Shown: positions 50,333 to 60,712, numbered from the stretch's first letter. The stretch: DNA of 64,000 nt from Candidatus Woesebacteria bacterium RIFCSPHIGHO2_01_FULL_39_32 (GCA_001792345.1 MGGJ01000013.1:21371-85370), one strand, 5' to 3'. Numbers and translations: made by a program. The notes: generated by a model from the letters alone, not told the origin.

Positions 50333-50917
50333 TTATTTTGCTCTCTCAACGTACTCTCCGGTCCTTGTATCAACAACGATTTTATCCCCTTTGTTTATAA
50401 AAAGTGGAACTTTGACCGAAAGAGCGTTTTCCAGAGTGGCCGGTTTATACATATTTGTGGCAGAGTTTCCTTTTATGCCAGGAGACGTATCGGCTATTAA
50501 TAAGGTAGCTTTTGGAGGAATTTCTATAGATAGAGGTCTATCTTCTTTACCTTGAGCTCCGCCGAAGGACCAAAAAAGTACGTTAGCATCGTTTCCTTCT
50601 TTAATGTAGGGTAATTCATCTTTAATAATTGTAAGTGGGATTTCCACTTGCTCGTAAGTTTTGGGGTCCATAAATACGGCATTTTGCTGCATCTTATAAA
50701 GAAACTGCAGTTTCCTTTTTGATGTTAAAACATCGTCAACTTTGACGTTAGAGCTGAAAGTCTTATCCTCAATAGCCCCTGTGACTAAATCCTTTGCAGT
50801 AACGCGAACAGTAGCACCACCCCTGCCCATTTTTGTATGGGTATACTTAATCACTCGATAAGGCTTCCCATTTGAGAGAAATGTTGTTCCGTTTTTTAAA
50901 TCAGTTGCCTGTATCAT
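50333..50917 (-). CDS. efp: elongation factor P (Arg at the modification-loop tip)
   Basis: KYTHTKMGRGGATVRV aligns with the E. coli VKPGKGQAFARV loop. Three OB domains. Confidence 0.9.
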   Translation of the reverse strand: MIQATDLKNGTTFLSNGKPYRVIKYTHTKMGRGGATVRVTAKDLVTGAIEDKTFSSNVKVDDVLTSKRKLQFLYKMQQNAVFMDPKTYEQVEIPLTIIKDELPYIKEGNDANVLFWSFGGAQGKEDRPLSIEIPPKATLLIADTSPGIKGNSATNMYKPATLENALSVKVPLFINKGDKIVVDTRTGEYVERAK

Positions 50918-50977
50918 TACTTATTCAAATTTTCTTTTGGAGCAAGCTCGCTTAGGCTCACTCTGAAATAGTTTTTG

Positions 50978-51994
50978 TTATTTAAGTGCATATCTTTCCG
51001 GGTATACCAATAAATTACTCATTGCTTCCGATAAAGGTAGTTTTGTTAAATGCTCGATCCAAAGATATTGGCCATTTGGGTTAATCTCAAAAAAAACATA
51101 TTTACCTTCAGGTGTAACGGCCATGTCAATTGCTCCAAACTGTAATTTAAAATGCTTGCATAAATTAAAACACTTCTTAATGATATCCTTTGGCAATTTA
51201 TATTCTTTATGTGGAATATCAAACGGATTCGCTTTTGTCCAATCAAGTTTTGCATTTTTATTCTCCTGTGAGTAAATAGCACAAGGAAATATCTGATTAC
51301 CGATAATTGTTATACGCAATTCCAATGATTTCTCAATTTTTTCCTGAACTAAAAAGGGATAATCAACTTCTCTTTTTTTGTAATATTCACGAAATTTATC
51401 AATACTAACTAAATAAGTTTGGAAAGTAATACTTTTTTTACCGTAAGTTACTTCAGGTTTACCAAGAACCTTAATAATCATTTGTCCGTCATGATCGGAG
51501 CAAAATTTTTCTATTTCATCATAACGTGTCGATACCAGTGTATCCGGTATTGAGAGTCCGATATTAAAAGCTTTATCTAACTGTAATATTTTATATTTTG
51601 CTTTATTCAAAGCATTATATGGACTAACAACAAAAATACCATTTTCTTCTGCTTTTATAAGAAGTGTATTACAAACCTGTCTAAATTCGTCAATTTTATA
51701 GCGTTCTGACAAAGCCTGTTGTACTTTCAGCTCATTATTAATCATATCGTAACCAAAATACGGTTTCCGAAACCATACTGACCTTATATCGGATAGGGAT
51801 ATTTCTAATTCTTTATCAAATATTGAATAATGACTTGTTTTATTAATTTTTGAAAATCTGATATCTGGAGATTTGATCAAGTTGTTCGTTTCCAGTTTAT
51901 AAAACGGTATACTCCATGCCCTTAGATACTTAACGACTTTATCTACATGGGGGTCAGGTTTACTGGAAACAATAAGTACAAATCCCTTCGCCAT
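50978..51994 (-). CDS. ATP-grasp ribosomal-peptide maturase (MdnC/MvdD graspetide macrocyclase family)
   Basis: SVWFRKP (VWYRRP), ELRITIIGNQIF, KLDWTKA (DWR) and FGAIDMAVTPEGKYVFFEINPNGQYLWIE, all collinear with MdnC. Confidence 0.8.
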   Translation of the reverse strand: MAKGFVLIVSSKPDPHVDKVVKYLRAWSIPFYKLETNNLIKSPDIRFSKINKTSHYSIFDKELEISLSDIRSVWFRKPYFGYDMINNELKVQQALSERYKIDEFRQVCNTLLIKAEENGIFVVSPYNALNKAKYKILQLDKAFNIGLSIPDTLVSTRYDEIEKFCSDHDGQMIIKVLGKPEVTYGKKSITFQTYLVSIDKFREYYKKREVDYPFLVQEKIEKSLELRITIIGNQIFPCAIYSQENKNAKLDWTKANPFDIPHKEYKLPKDIIKKCFNLCKHFKLQFGAIDMAVTPEGKYVFFEINPNGQYLWIEHLTKLPLSEAMSNLLVYPERYALK

Positions 51995-52031
51995 ACTTAT
52001 ACTATAACATTTGAAAAATTACCAAAGAAGT

Positions 52032-52319
52032 TTAATCTGGATCTGTAGTCTGAATATCATAAGAGCCACCCTTTGGAGTATACAAACTTGTGAGATAGCG
52101 CGTAGCTCCTTCCATAGATTGAATATTAGTTAGAGTGGAAGGATCGGGTTTATCAGATCGGGACTCTTGAAAGACAATGGGCTCAGGAGGAGTAATAGTT
52201 TCAATAAAGGGGATAGATTCAGAAGATACAGAAGTTCCCACAGGAGAAGAGGGGTGGACTTCTTGTTCTAAATCAACTAGGATGGGTATTTGTCGTCTAT
52301 TATCTATTTCAGTACTCAT
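52032..52319 (-). CDS. candidate graspetide precursor peptide
   Basis: 95-aa ORF directly upstream of the ATP-grasp gene on the same strand. Pro/acidic leader (IPFIETITPPEP). C-terminal T/S/K/D/E-rich core TSLYTPKGGSYDIQTTDPD. Confidence 0.4.
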   Translation of the reverse strand: MSTEIDNRRQIPILVDLEQEVHPSSPVGTSVSSESIPFIETITPPEPIVFQESRSDKPDPSTLTNIQSMEGATRYLTSLYTPKGGSYDIQTTDPD

Positions 52320-52425
52320 ATATAATTATCTATATTTAATAGCTATAACTTATTAGTTGACGAGTATTGTAATTTAATCCAAAACAATAATCAAGAATCT
52401 ATCAAATAAAGACTAAGAGTCTTAT

Positions 52426-53538
52426 TTACAATTTTACTAACCATTTTCCGTTTCTCTGAACAAGCTTGTCATCGAACCATAATTCTCCACCCCGCCGAAG
52501 ATCCTTAATCATATCCCAGTGAAGTGCTGATACGTTTTTACTACCCGTTTCCTTGTATCCCGATCCTAGTGCTATATGGATACTTCCACCGATTTTCTCA
52601 TCAAATAAAATATCTTTCGTAAAGCGACTTATGGCGAAATTGTTTCCAATCCCTAGTTCCCCGACAAATCTTCCGCCGCGGTCTACATCCAAAATTTTAT
52701 TGAGGGCTTCTTCATTCTTTTCAGCGCTTGCCTTGACAACTTTCCCGTCTTTAAATTCGAGTCTGACGTTATGGAATTCTTTACCGAGGTAAAGAGCTGG
52801 ATACGTATAGGCTATAAATCCATTCGCGGAATTTTCAACCGCTGAAGTAAATACTTCCCCGTCCGGCATATTAAACCTTCCGTCGCCATTTTCTGAACTT
52901 CTACCCTTTTTAGATATTCTTAAATCGGTTTCAGGACCTAGTATATGCATCTCATTTGTCACATCGATAATTTTCCTCAATTTCTCCTGCTCTTTATGTT
53001 TTGCCTCCCAATCAACTTCATTGATGGCGGGAAATACAAAATCTTCATAATCGCTTAAAGACATATCGGCTTCCTGCGCTTGTGCTTCTGTCGGAAACTT
53101 TGTAATAACCCAACGGGTTTTCAGAACGCGATAATCAATTAACGGCCTAACAACTTTTGATCTTGAAGAGATTTTTGCCGCATCAATGTTTGAGAAACCT
53201 CGGGTATTAGCTTGAGCATATAATCTAATCCAAACATCAAGTCCTTTTAATTCCTGATCTGCTAATTTCGGAAATGCTTTAATTTGTTCCGGTTTTGCGT
53301 ATTTAAAATAGCTTTCAGCAAACTCATTGTAAGATCGACTTATCACCTGCTCATCAACATCAACGTGAACTCTTACTTCAGATGCACCTGCCTTAATTAG
53401 TTCTTTATAAACTTCTAAAGCTAAGGGTTTAGCTAACCAATCCGATACAATTAATGCTCTATCGCCCTTTTTGACTTTTGTAGAGTATTTCACCAAAATC
53501 TTGGCCTGTTTTGTAACTCGTGGATCAATTAGAGACAT
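52426..53538 (-). CDS. M29-family aminopeptidase (AmpS/PepS-like)
   Basis: C-terminal IHIALGSGYKETGSKNVSALHWDMIKDL. 370 aa. Confidence 0.65.
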   Translation of the reverse strand: MSLIDPRVTKQAKILVKYSTKVKKGDRALIVSDWLAKPLALEVYKELIKAGASEVRVHVDVDEQVISRSYNEFAESYFKYAKPEQIKAFPKLADQELKGLDVWIRLYAQANTRGFSNIDAAKISSRSKVVRPLIDYRVLKTRWVITKFPTEAQAQEADMSLSDYEDFVFPAINEVDWEAKHKEQEKLRKIIDVTNEMHILGPETDLRISKKGRSSENGDGRFNMPDGEVFTSAVENSANGFIAYTYPALYLGKEFHNVRLEFKDGKVVKASAEKNEEALNKILDVDRGGRFVGELGIGNNFAISRFTKDILFDEKIGGSIHIALGSGYKETGSKNVSALHWDMIKDLRRGGELWFDDKLVQRNGKWLVKL

Positions 53539-53604
53539 GTCTTTTGGGTATTTTAGCGTTAGCTTGGTTTTTATTCAAGGAGTTTGATAAAATACGAGTG
53601 TTAA

Positions 53605-53650
53605 GCCGAGGTGGCGGAATGGCAGACGCGCAGGTCTCGTGCGAGCGTAA
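53605..53650 (+). pseudogene. 5' remnant of a Leu-type tRNA (acceptor, D-arm and anticodon-stem 5' strand only)
   Basis: GCCGAGGTGGCGGAATGGCAGACGCGCAGGTCTC parallels the tRNA-Leu 5' half. No matching 3' anticodon-stem strand or T-arm follows. Confidence 0.4.
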
Positions 53651-53704
53651 TTAAAAGCGAGCAAAAGCGTTAGCGACAAAACCTTTATTGCGAAGCAAGA
53701 ATTT

Positions 53705-53789
53705 GGCCAGGTGCTGGAATGGTAGACAGGCTGGTCTCAAAAACCAGTGGTCATAACAGACCGTGTGGGTTCGACTCCCACCCTGGCCA
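53705..53789 (+). tRNA. tRNA-Leu(CAA)
   Basis: Hand-folded: acceptor GGCCAGG/CCTGGCC, anticodon stem CTGGT/ACCAG, loop CTCAAAA, 17-nt variable arm, T-arm GTGGG-TTCGACT-CCCAC, discriminator A73. No encoded CCA. Confidence 0.85.
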
Positions 53790-53834
53790 CTTTAATACCT
53801 TGTTCGGGAGAGTAACCAATTTGGTTACAAATTG

Positions 53835-53853
53835 TCGACTCCCTCCCTCGGCA
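53835..53853 (+). pseudogene. 3' remnant of a Leu-type tRNA (T-loop, T-stem 3' strand, acceptor 3' strand)
   Basis: tcgactccctcCCTCGGCa then actttatatc. The acceptor CCTCGGC complements the GCCGAGG of the 5' remnant at 53605. The flank mirrors the tRNA-Leu 3' flank actttaatacc. Confidence 0.4.
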
Positions 53854-53861
53854 CTTTATAT

Positions 53862-54737
53862 CTATCTGTAATCAGGTCTATTTACGTCGCTTAACTCAAT
53901 TTGCGCCGAAAATCTTGTTTTTAAATTAAAAACCAGTCTATCTAAAATATGCCTTCTTAAATTTTTCGAGGTCGTAAATCTTCGAGCAGAAGGGTATACA
54001 ATTGCGTCTGGTACAAACTTAATTTCACCTTCGCTTTTAAGTTTCAGCATTATTTCTAAGTCCTCACTTGAGTAACGGCTTTCGTAACCACCCACCCTCA
54101 AAGCTGCTTCTCTAGAATAAGCAGAATTATTTCCTATGGAAAGAATAATTCCTTTTCTTAATCTCTTGTAATCATGGACCTTATCTCCGATTATTTGAAA
54201 TAAATACAACAAAACTCTATCTAAAGGGTCAATTTCCCCCTCAAAACGATCGTAAACCCTCCCATATGAACCGACTACCCCAGCTTGGGATAAGGCGCCA
54301 ATATGAAAACCAACCATTTCTGGATCTACTATCACATCTGCGTCAGTAGTTACTACATGCTTAACTCTTTTATCTAGCGATAACAAGCCCTTCTGCCTTG
54401 CTCGCCCAATACCCTTCTCGGACTCAAAAATTACTCTCGCGCCAAAAGCTTCTGCGATTTGAGAGGTCGCATCGGTGGAACCGTTATCAACTAATAGAAC
54501 TTGAGTAGGTATATCAGGAATTCTTGCCAATGCTTCATTAACTGATGCTAGACAAAGAGGAAGCCTTCTTTCTTCATTCAAAGCCGGTATAACAATTGCA
54601 GCAACCCACTCTCTGGATCCCGCCATTTCGCGTATATATTGCGAGTTGGCCTCTATTAATTTTAGAGTTTTATGCCCCGACAAATCGTTGGGATCAAACT
54701 CAGTAGGATTAAAAGGAAGAGGTATCTCCTTCATCAT
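53862..54737 (-). CDS. family-2 glycosyltransferase
   Basis: VIPALNEE, LLVDNGSTDAT, TDADV (DxD). Confidence 0.8.
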   Translation of the reverse strand: MMKEIPLPFNPTEFDPNDLSGHKTLKLIEANSQYIREMAGSREWVAAIVIPALNEERRLPLCLASVNEALARIPDIPTQVLLVDNGSTDATSQIAEAFGARVIFESEKGIGRARQKGLLSLDKRVKHVVTTDADVIVDPEMVGFHIGALSQAGVVGSYGRVYDRFEGEIDPLDRVLLYLFQIIGDKVHDYKRLRKGIILSIGNNSAYSREAALRVGGYESRYSSEDLEIMLKLKSEGEIKFVPDAIVYPSARRFTTSKNLRRHILDRLVFNLKTRFSAQIELSDVNRPDYR

Positions 54738-54848
54738 ATGATGTATTATAGGATTATCTACCTAATTCGTCTAGTAATTCTGAATTGTAGACAACCTATT
54801 CGTTGATCATCAGTAAAAGAACTTACTTTTACAGAATCTTGTATTCGC

Positions 54849-57981: not shown

Positions 57982-58497
57982 ATGATCCGGATACTAACCC
58001 CCAATGATACCGAAATCTATCGCCAGCTTCGACTCCTATCTTTAAAAACCGATCCTTTGGCATTTTTATCAACCTATGATGTAGAAACTAAGTATGATCT
58101 ATCATACTTTCGGCAAAAGATTTTTAACTCGATAAAGCATCCGCTTTACGGAATATATGGATTATTTGATAAAGACAAATTAGTCGCTTTTGCCCAGCTT
58201 GCGGATTCTTATTATAAAAATAAAAGACACATTGCATATCTAAATGAGGTTTATGTACACACTGATCTTCGAAGGAAAGGTGTTGCATCAAAGCTTGTTA
58301 AATATTTAATAGACAAGGCAAAGGAAAATCTATCTCTTGAGCAACTTCATTTGAGGGTTAATTCAGAAAATTTAAGCGCAATATCGCTTTACGAAAAGTT
58401 GGGATTCGAAAAAGTTACAGTTCTAAAAGATGCTGTAAAAAATCCGGACAACACCTACCAAGACGAATATTTCTATTGTTTTTATATTAAGAGCTGA
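57982..58497 (+). CDS. GNAT-family N-acetyltransferase
   Basis: RRKGVASKLVKYLIDKAKE acetyl-CoA-binding motif. Confidence 0.8.
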   Translation: MIRILTPNDTEIYRQLRLLSLKTDPLAFLSTYDVETKYDLSYFRQKIFNSIKHPLYGIYGLFDKDKLVAFAQLADSYYKNKRHIAYLNEVYVHTDLRRKGVASKLVKYLIDKAKENLSLEQLHLRVNSENLSAISLYEKLGFEKVTVLKDAVKNPDNTYQDEYFYCFYIKS

Positions 58498-58973: not shown

Positions 58974-59879
58974 ATGTATATCGATGACGAAAATAGATTT
59001 GAATATTTTTCTAGATGGGATAGAGATGAGGCTGCAAAAAAGGCCGATAATTTCTATAGTTTTATAAAATCTGTCTCCGTTGCTCCGCCCGAAAGACCAA
59101 TAAGAATAAAAGAACTGATACAATATACTGCACTGGGAATAGGAACTCCATTAATCATTAATTGGATCTGTCCAGTAGGAACTCCTTTAGAATTCGACTC
59201 AGAAACAAATAAACTATATAGAAGATATGCGCCAATAGATCCAGTCGAGGGATTCCAAAAAGATTATAGAATTATATCTAGAATTGGCCTTGAAAAAAGG
59301 CTGACAGAAATGATTGGGCAAATCCAATCTTCATTAGAATATGTAAAAATTGTTGCCGACAATAACCCATACTGCTTATATCCAGCCTGTCTTAGACTAG
59401 ACGGAGAGATAGACACAAGAAATGCTATAGAAACATATACAGGTTACGTACAAACTAAACTTGACGAGCTTATAGGATCCAAAAAAGTGGCGGTACTAAC
59501 ACTCTCCTCTCTTCTGGGCCAGCAGGGTTTTGAAGAATTTATGAATCTTTTCAAAGAAACTCAGGTGGACGATTTACTCCCCTTTCTACCAAATGATGTA
59601 TTAAAAACAGAAGTAGATATAATATCAAAGCATACCAAATTAGACCCATTATTAGAACCCAAGTTGGAATCTTTAGCAACTGATGTTATAAGACAATATG
59701 CGGTGGAAGGATTCTATTTATACAAAATGTTCGGAGATTCTGTAATTCTTGCTTGGAATGAGTCCACAAGAAGAAGCCAAATCATAGATTCTTTAAGAAA
59801 AGCTAGAGGAATTCCTCCCCTACCCAAAATATTTGTCTTGCACGAAAAAGGGAAAGGGCTAATTATTGACAATTATTAA
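58974..59879 (+). CDS. hypothetical protein, paralog A of a two-gene tandem pair
   Basis: 301 aa. Shares INWICPVGTPLEFD and YAVEGFYL...LAWNESTRRSQ with the next gene. Confidence 0.4.
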   Translation: MYIDDENRFEYFSRWDRDEAAKKADNFYSFIKSVSVAPPERPIRIKELIQYTALGIGTPLIINWICPVGTPLEFDSETNKLYRRYAPIDPVEGFQKDYRIISRIGLEKRLTEMIGQIQSSLEYVKIVADNNPYCLYPACLRLDGEIDTRNAIETYTGYVQTKLDELIGSKKVAVLTLSSLLGQQGFEEFMNLFKETQVDDLLPFLPNDVLKTEVDIISKHTKLDPLLEPKLESLATDVIRQYAVEGFYLYKMFGDSVILAWNESTRRSQIIDSLRKARGIPPLPKIFVLHEKGKGLIIDNY

Positions 59880-60712
59880 TGAATAAAAAAATTTTAAATA
59901 AAATTAAAGACAAATTCACTTACTCTCCACAAAACTGGAGCAAGCTAGCAAATTTATGGGAATACAACGAACCCATATCTTTCTACAGTTGGGAATGTCC
60001 TCCAAGGCAAATTCGGGAGGACAAAAAGTACGGAAGGTGGGTCAATTTTGACGTTGATATAAAGTCGGTTGTTGGGGGTAAAAAATTAGATAAGTTTACC
60101 GAACTTCCCAGGCTAACCTCTCAATGGAGGAAAGAAAAGTGGTTTTCAGAAAACATTATCCAAAAAAACTCCGAAGCAACATATACCAAGCTCATCGCCA
60201 ATACCAATGGATTATATCTTTACCCCAAATCTAAAAAGATATTGGGTGAAGAAAAAATAAAGTCTTTATCGAAAAAATTTAAAAAAATATTAGAAAAAAG
60301 GGCAAAAAAATTGTTGGGCAAAAACTCTCCCAAAATTGTTCTATATACCGAACTTCAAAATATTTTTAAAGTTGAATATGAAATGTTTTTTAAACTCGTC
60401 TATAGGTATCTCAGCAATAAAGAAAACGCAATCATCCCGAAAAGTATCATTGACTATTGGACGGATAGAATGATAAGCCACGTTGGCTTGACAAAGCAAG
60501 ACGAGAAAGAAAAGTTAATTATTTTAAAAAGAGTTATAGCCTCATACGCGGCAGAAGGCATAATCTTTGCCTTACTGGACAATACCAAGATTATGCCAAA
60601 TCCTGTATGGGTAAATTGGGAAGAAAAACCTGAATCTTCACAAACGTCAGAAATACTGAGAAAAAGATACGGTCTTGATAGTATCCCCGTAATTTACTTT
60701 ACTAAATACTAA
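59879..60712 (+). CDS. hypothetical protein, paralog B
   Basis: 277 aa. YSWECPPRQIRED and YAAEGIIF...VNWEEKPESSQT. ATGA overlap with paralog A. Confidence 0.4.
   Translation: MNKKILNKIKDKFTYSPQNWSKLANLWEYNEPISFYSWECPPRQIREDKKYGRWVNFDVDIKSVVGGKKLDKFTELPRLTSQWRKEKWFSENIIQKNSEATYTKLIANTNGLYLYPKSKKILGEEKIKSLSKKFKKILEKRAKKLLGKNSPKIVLYTELQNIFKVEYEMFFKLVYRYLSNKENAIIPKSIIDYWTDRMISHVGLTKQDEKEKLIILKRVIASYAAEGIIFALLDNTKIMPNPVWVNWEEKPESSQTSEILRKRYGLDSIPVIYFTKY

What the first reader, a model, noticed from the sequence alone, without database searches (positions are those of the whole stretch)
50333..53538. Graspetide (microviridin-type RiPP) cassette: precursor-like ORF + MdnC-family ATP-grasp macrocyclase, flanked by an M29 aminopeptidase and efp
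The 338-aa protein is collinear with MdnC/MvdD. Shared hallmarks are SVWFRKP (VWYRRP), ELRITIIGNQIF (ELRITIVGEQIF), KLDWTKA (TDWRKE) and FGAIDMAVTPEGKYVFFEINPNGQYLWIE. This family installs side-chain ester/amide macrocycles on ribosomal peptides. Directly upstream on the same strand is a 95-aa ORF. It has a Pro/acidic leader (…SESIPFIETITPPEPIVFQE…) and a C-terminal core TSLYTPKGGSYDIQTTDPD, rich in donor (Thr/Ser/Lys) and acceptor (Asp/Glu) residues. The core is reminiscent of the microviridin T-x-K-Y-P-S-D-x-E core. An M29 aminopeptidase gene immediately upstream could be a leader-trimming protease. A GNAT gene (57982-58497) exists but is 6 kb away. The ligase is clearly present, but the product and precursor are unverified.
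Basis: partly seen in the sequence, partly recalled or inferred. Interest (0 to 1): 0.7.

Follow-up and report, generated by a model that had tools for sequence, protein, structure and literature searches.

The report
Two-gene graspetide cassette in Woesebacteria
A small precursor-peptide gene and a ring-forming ATP-grasp enzyme gene sit as an inserted two-gene module between two housekeeping genes of a candidate-phyla-radiation bacterium; this exact pair was already predicted in a 2022 survey, and the neighbouring peptidase and efp genes have nothing to do with it.

Summary
The 338-aa protein is a graspetide-type ATP-grasp macrocyclase. It scores E about 1e-55 against the MvdD/MvdC/TIGR04187 profiles and 1e-9 against RimK. 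Its AF2 model's 32 best PDB matches are all graspetide macrocyclases. It falls far below every curated cut-off, so it is not an MvdD equivalog.

The 95-aa ORF is a credible precursor. It carries the published CPR 'branch 1' leader and core signatures. It aligns without gaps (z = 5.6) to the ORF abutting a 43%-identical ligase elsewhere. Ligase phylogeny tracks precursor type.

This very locus is already in Makarova et al. 2022 (Branch_1, precursor cluster6490), so the prediction is not new.

M29 and efp are not part of the system. Neither occurs in 165 other ligase loci. In two sister Woesebacteria, M29 and efp are directly adjacent in the same synteny block without the cassette. The cassette also has the lowest GC in the window. 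The core is not microviridin-like.

One new caveat: the ligase has Thr in place of the Arg of the D(F/W)R loop. That position is Arg in 108 of 111 homologues and 158 of 159 loci, and Ala substitutions of the loop residues abolish activity in PsnB. Activity is therefore uncertain.

The parts
50918..52425 (-). The whole inserted two-gene cassette: upstream intergenic region, precursor gene, 37-nt spacer, ligase gene and 60-nt downstream intergenic region.
   Evidence: It is absent from sister Woesebacteria L174 and L175, where M29 is followed by efp after 67-74 nt within otherwise identical synteny. Its GC is 0.320, the lowest of all 1.5-kb windows in the 64 kb (mean 0.387, sd 0.024).
52032..52319 (-). 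Precursor peptide gene (95 aa; identical to KKR30825.1, Makarova cluster6490).
   Evidence: The identical sequence is in the published curated precursor set. It aligns without gaps to the ORF abutting the L092 ligase (z = 5.6, 0 of 1000 shuffles). GC3 is 0.25 against an overall GC of 0.40, as expected for coding sequence in this frame.
52269..52286 (-). Leader motif PILVDL (residues 12-17). It matches the published Phhx(1,2)h signature within the first 30 residues.
   Evidence: with the motif definition from PMC8939145. This N-terminal part has no counterpart in the shorter L092 homologue.
52167..52181 (-). Mid-leader motif PIVFQ (residues 47-51). This is my candidate for the ligase-recognition element.
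   Evidence: It aligns in register with PIQFY of L092 at identical spacing to the core. It recurs as PIIFQ (L008), PIIFT (L172) and PVVVY (L143). Its role is inferred.
52035..52103 (-). Predicted core peptide, residues 73-95: TRYLTSLYTPKGGSYDIQTTDPD. It has three Thr spaced i, i+4, i+8 (T73, T77, T81), a PKGG turn and three Asp (D88, D93, D95).
   Evidence: It matches TxxxTx(6-10)Dx(1-4)D. T73, Y75, T77, L79, T81, G84, D88, T91, T92, D93 and D95 are conserved in L092. Ring connectivity is inferred, not shown.
50978..51994 (-). ATP-grasp macrocyclase gene (338 aa; Makarova Branch_1).
   Evidence: TIGR04184 9.6e-55, TIGR04187 2.2e-51, RimK 1.1e-9. MdnC 5IG9 matches at 8e-38 over the full length. 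The AF2 model has pLDDT 92.4, and its 32 best Foldseek PDB hits are graspetide macrocyclases. R76, K175, R227, D251, D290, E303 and N305 are kept.
51236..51238 (-). Codon ACA for Thr253, which replaces the Arg of the D(F/W)R loop.
   Evidence: Arg occupies this position in 158 of 159 readable loci and in 108 of 111 protein homologues, with 2 Lys and 1 Thr. The codon is one transversion from AGA. The DNA is identical in six assemblies. In PsnB, Ala substitution of the DFR residues abolishes macrocyclisation.
52320..52425 (-). AT-rich (GC 0.21) intergenic region upstream of the precursor gene, with a promoter-like site TTGATT-17-TACAAT at 52394-52366.
   Evidence: Promoter-like sites in this region are not more frequent than in shuffles (10 found, 12.5 expected), so this is weak evidence.
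52426..53538 (-). M29 aminopeptidase. It flanks the cassette and is NOT part of the system.
50333..50917 (-). efp (EF-P). It flanks the cassette and is NOT part of the system.

Best explanation
The region holds a minimal, horizontally acquired graspetide (omega-ester peptide RiPP) module of the CPR-specific 'branch 1' kind. It consists of one precursor gene (95 aa) and, 37 nt downstream, one MvdD/MdnC-family ATP-grasp macrocyclase. The module lies between the ancestral neighbours M29 and efp.

Inferred mechanism, by homology to MdnC and PsnB:
1. The ligase docks on a hydrophobic leader element, either PIVFQ at residues 47-51 or PILVDL at 12-17.
2. R227 positions a core Asp carboxylate next to ATP, and the carboxylate is phosphorylated.
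3. A Thr hydroxyl attacks the acyl phosphate to give a side-chain ester, losing 18 Da per ring.

The conserved core T73-x3-T77-x3-T81-PKGG-x2-D88-x4-D93-x-D95 could give up to three lactone rings, probably nested around the PKGG turn.

What is shown: family membership of the ligase, conservation of the precursor, and the indel. What is inferred: ring number and connectivity, the leader cleavage site (possibly after G71-A72), export and biological role. The Thr253 substitution in the D(F/W)R loop makes present-day activity uncertain.
For: Ligase: full-length profile matches to graspetide maturases, about 45 orders of magnitude better than RimK. MdnC is the best solved relative. The AF2 model (pLDDT 92.4) has all 32 top PDB fold matches among graspetide macrocyclases at TM about 0.8, against about 0.65 for RimK, LysX and ArgX. 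The residues equivalent to PsnB R72 and R213, and the K, D, E and N positions that are invariant across 111 homologues (assigned to ATP/Mg binding from general knowledge of ATP-grasp enzymes), are all kept.

Precursor: it is identical to published cluster6490. Both published branch-1 signatures are present. It aligns collinearly and without gaps to the ORF abutting the 43%-identical L092 ligase (z = 5.6). Comparable short ORFs with a Thr...Gly...Asp-rich C-terminus lie directly upstream of the ligase in L093, L143, L008, L172, L173 and L007, and P0002's contig has a 93-aa ORF in that position whose sequence could not be read. The ligase NJ tree splits by precursor type.

Insertion: sister genomes have M29 and efp adjacent without the cassette. 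The cassette GC is the lowest in the window.
Against: There is no expression, peptide or mass-spectrometry evidence. The 95-aa ORF has no detectable homologue in a 5.8-billion-protein database other than itself. Only one relative (L092) shows statistically significant sequence similarity; the others rest on position and composition. No protease, exporter or tailoring gene accompanies the pair. The ligase lacks the near-invariant Arg of the D(F/W)R loop, whose alanine mutant is inactive in PsnB. Scores are far below all curated NCBIfam cut-offs. Promoter-like sites are not enriched, and Shine-Dalgarno motifs are uninformative in this genome.
Confidence: 0.7

Rival explanations
1. The cassette is a decaying relic. 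The ligase was inactivated by the R253T change in the D(F/W)R loop, so the precursor is no longer cyclised, or only poorly.
For: Thr253 is the only such residue among 159 readable loci. Among 111 protein homologues it is one of three non-Arg residues, and the other two clean cases are the conservative Lys. The nearest relative, L113, keeps DWR. Ala substitutions of the PsnB DFR residues abolish macrocyclisation. The codon is a single transversion from AGA.
Against: Both genes are intact full-length ORFs. All other conserved positions are retained. The AF2 model is confident through this loop (pLDDT 92-98 for residues 241-270). Lys254 follows immediately (DWTK), and Lys replaces Arg in two homologues, so partial compensation is conceivable. 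The same sequence is fixed in six assemblies, although these are clonal and so carry little weight.
Confidence: 0.22
2. The M29 aminopeptidase is a dedicated leader-trimming protease of the cluster.
For: It is on the same strand, 106 nt upstream of the precursor gene. Makarova et al. note metallopeptidases in several branch-1 loci.
Against: No M29 homologue occurs in 165 other ligase loci, about 1.09 Mb in total. More than 5,500 M29 homologues score E <= 1e-60, with orthologues at 60-80% identity across Woesebacteria, whereas the ligase's best relative is about 45% identical. In sister genomes M29 occupies the same position next to efp without the cassette. An exopeptidase would need to remove about 72 residues. 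An incidental trimming role cannot be excluded.
Confidence: 0.05
3. The ATP-grasp enzyme modifies a protein rather than a RiPP precursor, for example EF-P encoded next door or a ribosomal protein, in the manner of RimK. On this view the 95-aa ORF is irrelevant.
For: efp lies 60 nt downstream on the same strand. One relative (L007) sits near the rplA and rplK genes. JGI auto-annotation calls relatives 'RimK-type ligase-like'.
Against: efp is absent from all 165 other ligase loci and is adjacent to M29 in genomes lacking the ligase. RimK similarity is far weaker by sequence (1e-9 against 1e-55) and by fold (TM 0.65 against 0.8). A short upstream ORF co-varies with the ligase clade.
Confidence: 0.03

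Closest known systems
CPR 'Branch 1' graspetide loci of Makarova et al. 2022 (Biol Direct 17:7, PMC8939145); precursor cluster6490
   Same: It is this locus. The 338-aa ligase of Ca. Woesebacteria GW2011_GWA1_39_8 (GCA_000995445.1, my L003) is listed as Branch_1. The identical 95-aa protein KKR30825.1 is their cluster6490 precursor. The leader Phhx(1,2)h and core TxxxTx(6-10)Dx(1-4)D signatures are both present.
   Different: Nothing differs in kind. In the paper the precursor is a singleton with no cross-lineage support. Added here: a homologous precursor next to a 43%-identical ligase (L092), a shared PIxF leader motif, proof that M29 and efp are ancestral neighbours split by an indel, and the Thr253 anomaly. 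The cluster-23 and TPR genes typical of branch 1 are not adjacent here.
Microviridin system (MdnA precursor; MdnC/MvdD ester ligase and MdnB/MvdC amide ligase; MdnD GNAT; MdnE ABC transporter), group 1 graspetides
   Same: MdnC is the closest solved structure (8e-38 over the full length; TM about 0.8). It has the same domain architecture and the same conserved R, K, D, E and N residues. The precursor lies directly upstream, with a Pro-hydrophobic leader element.
   Different: Identity is only 28%. Scores are 186 and 170 bits against cut-offs of 475 and 425. There is a single ligase. There is no PFFARFL leader. The core lacks conserved TxKxPSDx(E/D)(E/D): Lys83 and Ser86 are not conserved in L092. 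No GNAT or ABC transporter is associated. The enzyme has DWT instead of DWR.
PsnB/plesiocin (group 2 graspetide) and hairpin-type multi-ester graspetides (thuringinin, amycolimiditide; the last two recalled from my own knowledge)
   Same: It is a single ATP-grasp enzyme that would install several Thr-to-Asp/Glu esters. The equivalents of PsnB R72 and R213 are kept. A several-Thr, turn, several-acid layout suggests nested rings across a hairpin.
   Different: PsnB is a distant fold match (16-19% identity). The plesiocin core is TTxxxxEE, repeated; here there is a single C-terminal core with a different spacing. The Arg of the DFR loop, required in PsnB, is Thr here.

Membership tests
Graspetide (omega-ester peptide) ATP-grasp macrocyclases (MvdD/MdnC/PsnB superfamily) | Full-length sequence similarity to graspetide maturase profiles that clearly exceeds similarity to RimK, LysX or GshB. 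| tested here: met
   TIGR04184 9.6e-55, TIGR04187 2.2e-51, TIGR04185 7.4e-50 and TIGR04192 1.3e-36, against RimK 1.1e-9 and LysX 6.7e-7. The PDB sequence hits are MdnC, MdnB, AMdnB, CdnC and PruB (the 9bou entry, named) only.
Graspetide (omega-ester peptide) ATP-grasp macrocyclases (MvdD/MdnC/PsnB superfamily) | Pre-ATP-grasp domain plus ATP-grasp fold, as in MdnC, CdnC and PsnB. | tested here: met
   AF2 model pLDDT 92.4, pTM 0.91. Foldseek ranks 1-32 are all graspetide macrocyclases (TMq 0.70-0.80, with one truncated MdnB chain at 0.60). RimK, LysX and ArgX start at rank 33 with TMq 0.59-0.66. The PF21068 match is weak (1.6e-4, below cut-off).
Graspetide (omega-ester peptide) ATP-grasp macrocyclases (MvdD/MdnC/PsnB superfamily) | Conserved core-binding arginines (PsnB R72 and R213) and nucleotide/Mg ligands. 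| tested here: met
   R76 (WFRKP), R227 (ELRITI), K175, D290, E303 and N305 are present. They are invariant or near-invariant in 111 homologues. Their roles are taken from the PsnB paper.
Graspetide (omega-ester peptide) ATP-grasp macrocyclases (MvdD/MdnC/PsnB superfamily) | D(F/W)R loop, which is required for macrocyclisation in PsnB. | tested here: not met
   The window protein reads D251-W252-T253. Arg occupies this position in 158 of 159 loci and 108 of 111 homologues.
Graspetide (omega-ester peptide) ATP-grasp macrocyclases (MvdD/MdnC/PsnB superfamily) | An adjacent precursor gene with a leader recognition element and a Thr/Ser plus Asp/Glu-rich core. | tested here: met
   The 95-aa ORF ends 37 nt upstream on the same strand and carries the motifs. 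It has a homologue in L092. Analogous ORFs occur in six further relatives.
Graspetide (omega-ester peptide) ATP-grasp macrocyclases (MvdD/MdnC/PsnB superfamily) | ATP-dependent formation of side-chain ester or amide rings on the precursor (-18 Da each). | not testable with these tools
   This needs heterologous co-expression or in-vitro reconstitution with mass spectrometry.
MvdD / MvdC equivalogs (TIGR04184 / TIGR04185), i.e. a microviridin-type system in the strict sense | Score at or above the curated equivalog cut-off. | tested here: not met
   186 bits against 475, and 169.9 bits against 425. The TIGR04187 subfamily model gives 175 against 350.
MvdD / MvdC equivalogs (TIGR04184 / TIGR04185), i.e. 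a microviridin-type system in the strict sense | Microviridin core TxKxPSDx(E/D)(E/D) and PFFARFL leader. The core motif is from my own knowledge; the leader motif is quoted in PMC8939145. | tested here: not met
   The core is TRYLTSLYTPKGGSYDIQTTDPD. Lys83 and Ser86 are not conserved in the homologous L092 core. The leader has PILVDL and PIVFQ, not PFFARFL.
MvdD / MvdC equivalogs (TIGR04184 / TIGR04185), i.e. a microviridin-type system in the strict sense | Two ligases (ester and amide) plus an associated GNAT and ABC transporter (from my own knowledge of mdn/mvd clusters). | tested here: not met
   There is one ligase and no transporter within 8 kb either side. The GNAT is 6 kb away. A weak GNAT homologue occurs in only 1 of 165 other loci.
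CPR Branch 1 graspetide loci (Makarova et al. 2022) | The ligase falls in Branch 1 of their ATP-grasp tree. | tested here: met
   The identical protein, gi 1091043429 from GCA_000995445.1, is listed as Branch_1 and appears in their tree file. GCA_000995445.1 carries the exact window sequence.
CPR Branch 1 graspetide loci (Makarova et al. 2022) | Precursor with Phhx(1,2)h in the first 30 residues and core TxxxTx(6-10)Dx(1-4)D. | tested here: met
   PILVDL at residue 12 and TSLYTPKGGSYDIQTTD at residue 77. Both occur together in 0.8% of shuffles.
CPR Branch 1 graspetide loci (Makarova et al. 2022) | Frequent association with cluster-23 proteins, TPR proteins or metallopeptidases. | tested here: not met
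   None is adjacent. The nearest TPR gene, about 5.7 kb away, is also present in sister genomes that lack the cassette. M29 is not associated. This feature is frequent in the branch but not obligatory.
RimK-type protein/peptide glutamate ligases | Best similarity to RimK-family profiles and structures. | tested here: not met
   RimK family 38 bits against a cut-off of 143. RimK structures rank below all graspetide macrocyclases.

The most novel reading that the evidence does not exclude
The Woesebacteria ligase may be a naturally active macrocyclase that works without the canonical Arg of the D(F/W)R loop, for example by using the shifted Lys254. It would make a previously unseen three-lactone hairpin peptide from the T-x3-T-x3-T...D-x4-D-x-D core. 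That would give the first experimentally tractable graspetide from a CPR episymbiont and would show that the DFR arginine is dispensable.
Probability: 0.15. Interest if true: 0.5.

Novelty: already known. Interest (0 to 1): 0.22.

Why it matters
RiPP gene clusters are rare in the tiny genomes of candidate-phyla-radiation bacteria, and no CPR graspetide has been characterised chemically or biologically. Known graspetides are mostly protease inhibitors, so such a peptide could act in the episymbiont-host relationship. This particular pair, however, is already catalogued.

What this analysis adds is practical:
- It gives a minimal two-gene construct to express.
- It supplies a homologous pair (L092) as a control.
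- It identifies a candidate leader recognition motif.
- It shows that the flanking peptidase should not be included in the construct.
- It flags a single-residue anomaly, T253, that should be tested against a T253R revertant before a negative result is interpreted.

Tried and rejected
1. **EF-P or ribosomal-protein modification by the ligase.** Rejected. efp is absent from 165 other ligase loci and is adjacent to M29 in cassette-free sister genomes.

2. **M29 as the cluster protease.** Rejected for the same reasons, and because M29 is highly conserved and vertically inherited.

3. **GNAT at 57982-58497 as an MdnD analogue.** Rejected. It is 6 kb away, with only one weak homologue in another locus.

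4. **Direct homology search with the 95-aa ORF.** It found only itself and a fragment. Conservation had to be shown through synteny.

5. **Pairwise similarity of the 95-aa ORF to the L093, L143 and L008 upstream ORFs.** Not significant (z = 0 to 2.1). Only L092 is significant.

6. **Shine-Dalgarno evidence.** Uninformative: 6 of 43 long ORFs have an SD-like motif.

7. **Promoter and terminator scan.** Not above chance.

8. **Population polymorphism for dN/dS.** All six assemblies are DNA-identical over the cassette.

9. **Flanking repeats or a tRNA target for the insertion.** The junction alignment showed no obvious target duplication. tRNA-Leu lies 1.3 kb away, beyond M29, and is not at the junction.

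10. **Precursor in L012.** No convincing candidate was found.

11. **P0002's 93-aa upstream ORF.** The DNA was not retrievable.

12. **Antisense ORFs at 52011-52133 and 52177-52356.** They have no relevant features.


Full report
**1. The observation**

- efp, 50333-50917
- a 338-aa ATP-grasp protein, 50978-51994
- a 95-aa ORF, 52032-52319
- an M29 peptidase, 52426-53538

Pfam and NCBIfam confirm M29 (4e-65), EF-P (8e-62) and the distant GNAT. The window comes from a Candidatus Woesebacteria genome (CPR/Microgenomates). The same DNA occurs in six assemblies, including GCA_000995445.1 and GCA_001792545.1.

**2. The ligase**

Sequence evidence:
- It matches the graspetide maturase profiles over its full length: TIGR04184 MvdD 9.6e-55, TIGR04187 2.2e-51, TIGR04185 MvdC 7.4e-50.
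- The RimK family scores only 1.1e-9.
- Every score is far below the curated cut-off (186 against 475, 175 against 350). It is therefore a distant family member and not an MvdD equivalog.

Structural evidence:
- The best solved relative is the microviridin ester ligase MdnC (5IG9, 8e-38, full length).
- An AlphaFold2 model built on 25 homologues is confident (pLDDT 92.4, pTM 0.91).
- Its 32 best Foldseek matches in the PDB are all graspetide macrocyclases: MdnC, AMdnB, CdnC, PruB, MdnB and PsnB, at TM about 0.8.
- ArgX, LysX and RimK follow at E about 1e-14 and TM about 0.65.

**3. The precursor**

Makarova et al. 2022 (PMC8939145) described two CPR-specific ATP-grasp branches. Branch 1 precursors share two signatures: a leader Phhx(1,2)h within about the first 30 residues, and a core TxxxTx(6-10)Dx(1-4)D.

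The 95-aa ORF has both: PILVDL at residue 12 and TSLYTPKGGSYDIQTTD at residue 77.
- Both occur together in 0.8% of shuffles of the peptide.
- This ORF is the only one of 557 short stop-to-stop segments in the window with the core motif near its C-terminus.

Their supplementary tables list this very ligase (gi 1091043429, GCA_000995445.1, 338 aa) as Branch_1. They list the identical 95-aa protein KKR30825.1 as precursor cluster6490, a singleton. The central claim of the finding is therefore already published as a bioinformatic prediction.

**4. Independent test of conservation**

A database search with the 95-aa ORF finds only itself. I therefore collected 165 other ligase loci from genome and metagenome collections and from contig look-ups.

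In the closest relatives (ligase 38-45% identical), a short unannotated ORF abuts the ligase start on the same strand:
- L092, 67 aa: ...KTFYKTTLWTGPGQTCDGTTTDSD*
- L093/L094, 68 aa: ...GTETFTPPDNDFDDSNPDP*
- L143, 134 aa: ...GTIVRTTQTPQGTVVDDYKRDPE*
- L008, 134 aa
- L172, 52 aa
- L173, 51 aa
- L007: an ORF cut off at the contig edge
- P0002's contig: a 93-aa ORF 12 nt upstream, for which no DNA was available

The window ORF aligns to the L092 ORF without gaps over 65 residues (score 51, z = 5.6, 0 of 1000 shuffles). Both a leader element (PIVFQ against PIQFY) and the core (TxYxTxL[YW]TxxGxxxDxxTTDxD*) align at identical spacing. The other pairs are not significant by sequence alone (z = 0 to 2.1), which is usual for RiPP precursors.

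A P-I-x-F-like motif recurs in L008 (PIIFQ), L172 (PIIFT) and L143 (PVVVY).

More distant branch members carry a different, well-conserved precursor type (PFPxLFxEKMP...GxYDxxAQxF...TDTGGHGDTDTDSD). A neighbour-joining tree of the ligases splits according to precursor type. Ligase and precursor therefore co-vary.

**5. The flanking genes**

Neither M29 nor efp has a homologue in any of the 165 other ligase loci, about 1.09 Mb in total. M29 is abundant and highly conserved in Woesebacteria, with orthologues at 60-80% identity. The ligase's best relatives are only about 45% identical.

Two sister Woesebacteria genomes (M29 78-79% identical) have the same gene order as the window: MBL-fold, DnaB..., M29, efp, 154-aa ORF, 200-aa ORF, DksA-type zinc finger, RluD, Na/H exchanger, TPR. 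In both, M29 is followed directly by efp after 67-74 nt, with no precursor and no ligase.

The 1,508-nt interval 50918-52425 is therefore an indel inside a conserved housekeeping block.
- Its GC is 0.320, the lowest of all 1.5-kb windows in the 64 kb (mean 0.387, sd 0.024).
- The ligase GC3 is 0.245, against 0.32-0.34 in the flanking genes.

This points to horizontal acquisition. M29, efp and the GNAT are not part of the system. The idea that the ligase might modify EF-P is also rejected on this evidence.

**6.

This is the D(F/W)R loop. In PsnB its Arg contacts the nucleotide phosphates, and alanine substitution of the loop residues abolishes macrocyclisation.

The window enzyme has Thr253 at that position (codon ACA, one transversion from AGA).
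- The aligned residue is Arg in 158 of 159 readable loci.
- Among 111 protein homologues it is Arg in 108, Lys in 2 and Thr in 1. That last homologue (P0021) is itself degenerate in this loop.
- The closest relative, L113 (58% identical over the C-terminal part), keeps DWR.

All other conserved positions are retained: R76 and R227 (equivalent to PsnB R72 and R213), K175, D251, D290, E303 and N305.

Whether the enzyme is active, perhaps with Lys254 compensating, or was recently inactivated cannot be decided computationally.

**7. Mechanism**

Shown:
- family and fold of the ligase
- precursor conservation and co-variation with the ligase
- the indel

Inferred from MdnC and PsnB:
- leader docking through a hydrophobic element
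- R227-guided positioning of a core Asp next to ATP
- acyl-phosphate formation
- attack by a Thr hydroxyl to form an ester

Eleven core positions are conserved between the window and L092: T73, Y75, T77, L79, T81, G84, D88, T91, T92, D93 and D95. They suggest up to three esters, probably nested around the PKGG turn.

The core is not microviridin-like. Lys83 and Ser86 are not conserved, and there is a single ligase. No protease, exporter or tailoring gene lies nearby. A Gly/Ala doublet before T73 (EGA|T; QG|T in L143; GAG|T in L093) is a possible cleavage site.

**8. Verdict**

- The finding is already known (Makarova et al. 2022).
- The additions here are modest: cross-lineage support for a singleton precursor, a candidate leader motif, the indel and its boundaries, and the T253 caveat.
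- Interest is low to moderate, mainly as a ready-made minimal construct for the first experimental look at a CPR graspetide.

Noticed in passing
window 51236-51238 (minus strand), ligase residue 253: Thr replaces the near-invariant Arg of the D(F/W)R loop. This is unique among 159 readable loci and one of 3 non-Arg residues among 111 homologues. The nearest relative keeps Arg.
   Followed up: yes
window 50918-52425: The cassette has the lowest GC (0.320) of any 1.5-kb window in the 64 kb and is missing from two sister genomes with otherwise identical synteny. No flanking direct repeats or mobility genes were seen.
   Followed up: partly
window 53539-54848 compared with L174 4246-6000 and L175 4806-6000: The DnaB-M29 interval is also variable between sister genomes. 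The window has a GT2 glycosyltransferase and tRNA-Leu(caa) at 53705-53790. L174 has a Trp-repressor-like gene plus an 82-aa ORF. L175 has a 197-aa ORF on the other strand. This is a second variable spot right next to the cassette.
   Followed up: no
L095 593-949, L100 601-780, L105 1-276, L098 1615-1851, L103 2721-2987; L096, L101 and L104 (oriented opposite to the ligase): There is a second, well-conserved CPR precursor type (PFPxLFxEKMP...GxYDxxAQxF...TDTGGHGDTDTDSD). It is often accompanied by a roughly 170-220-aa conserved protein next to the ligase. The ligase tree separates these loci from the window's group.
   Followed up: partly
P0021, P0018, P0107 (ligase homologues): These are other departures at the D(F/W)R position. 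P0018 and P0107 have D-I-K. P0021 has a deletion and Thr, plus further divergence in the ELRITI region (DIRVTV).
   Followed up: no
window 50333-50917 (efp): EF-P is 194 aa here against 186 aa in the sister genomes. Its modification loop reads KMGRGG, with Arg at the tip. No known EF-P-modifying enzyme gene was looked for.
   Followed up: no
window 58974-60712 (+): Two adjacent ORFs of 301 and 277 aa have no Pfam hit on record. They are conserved in the same position in all strain assemblies.
   Followed up: no
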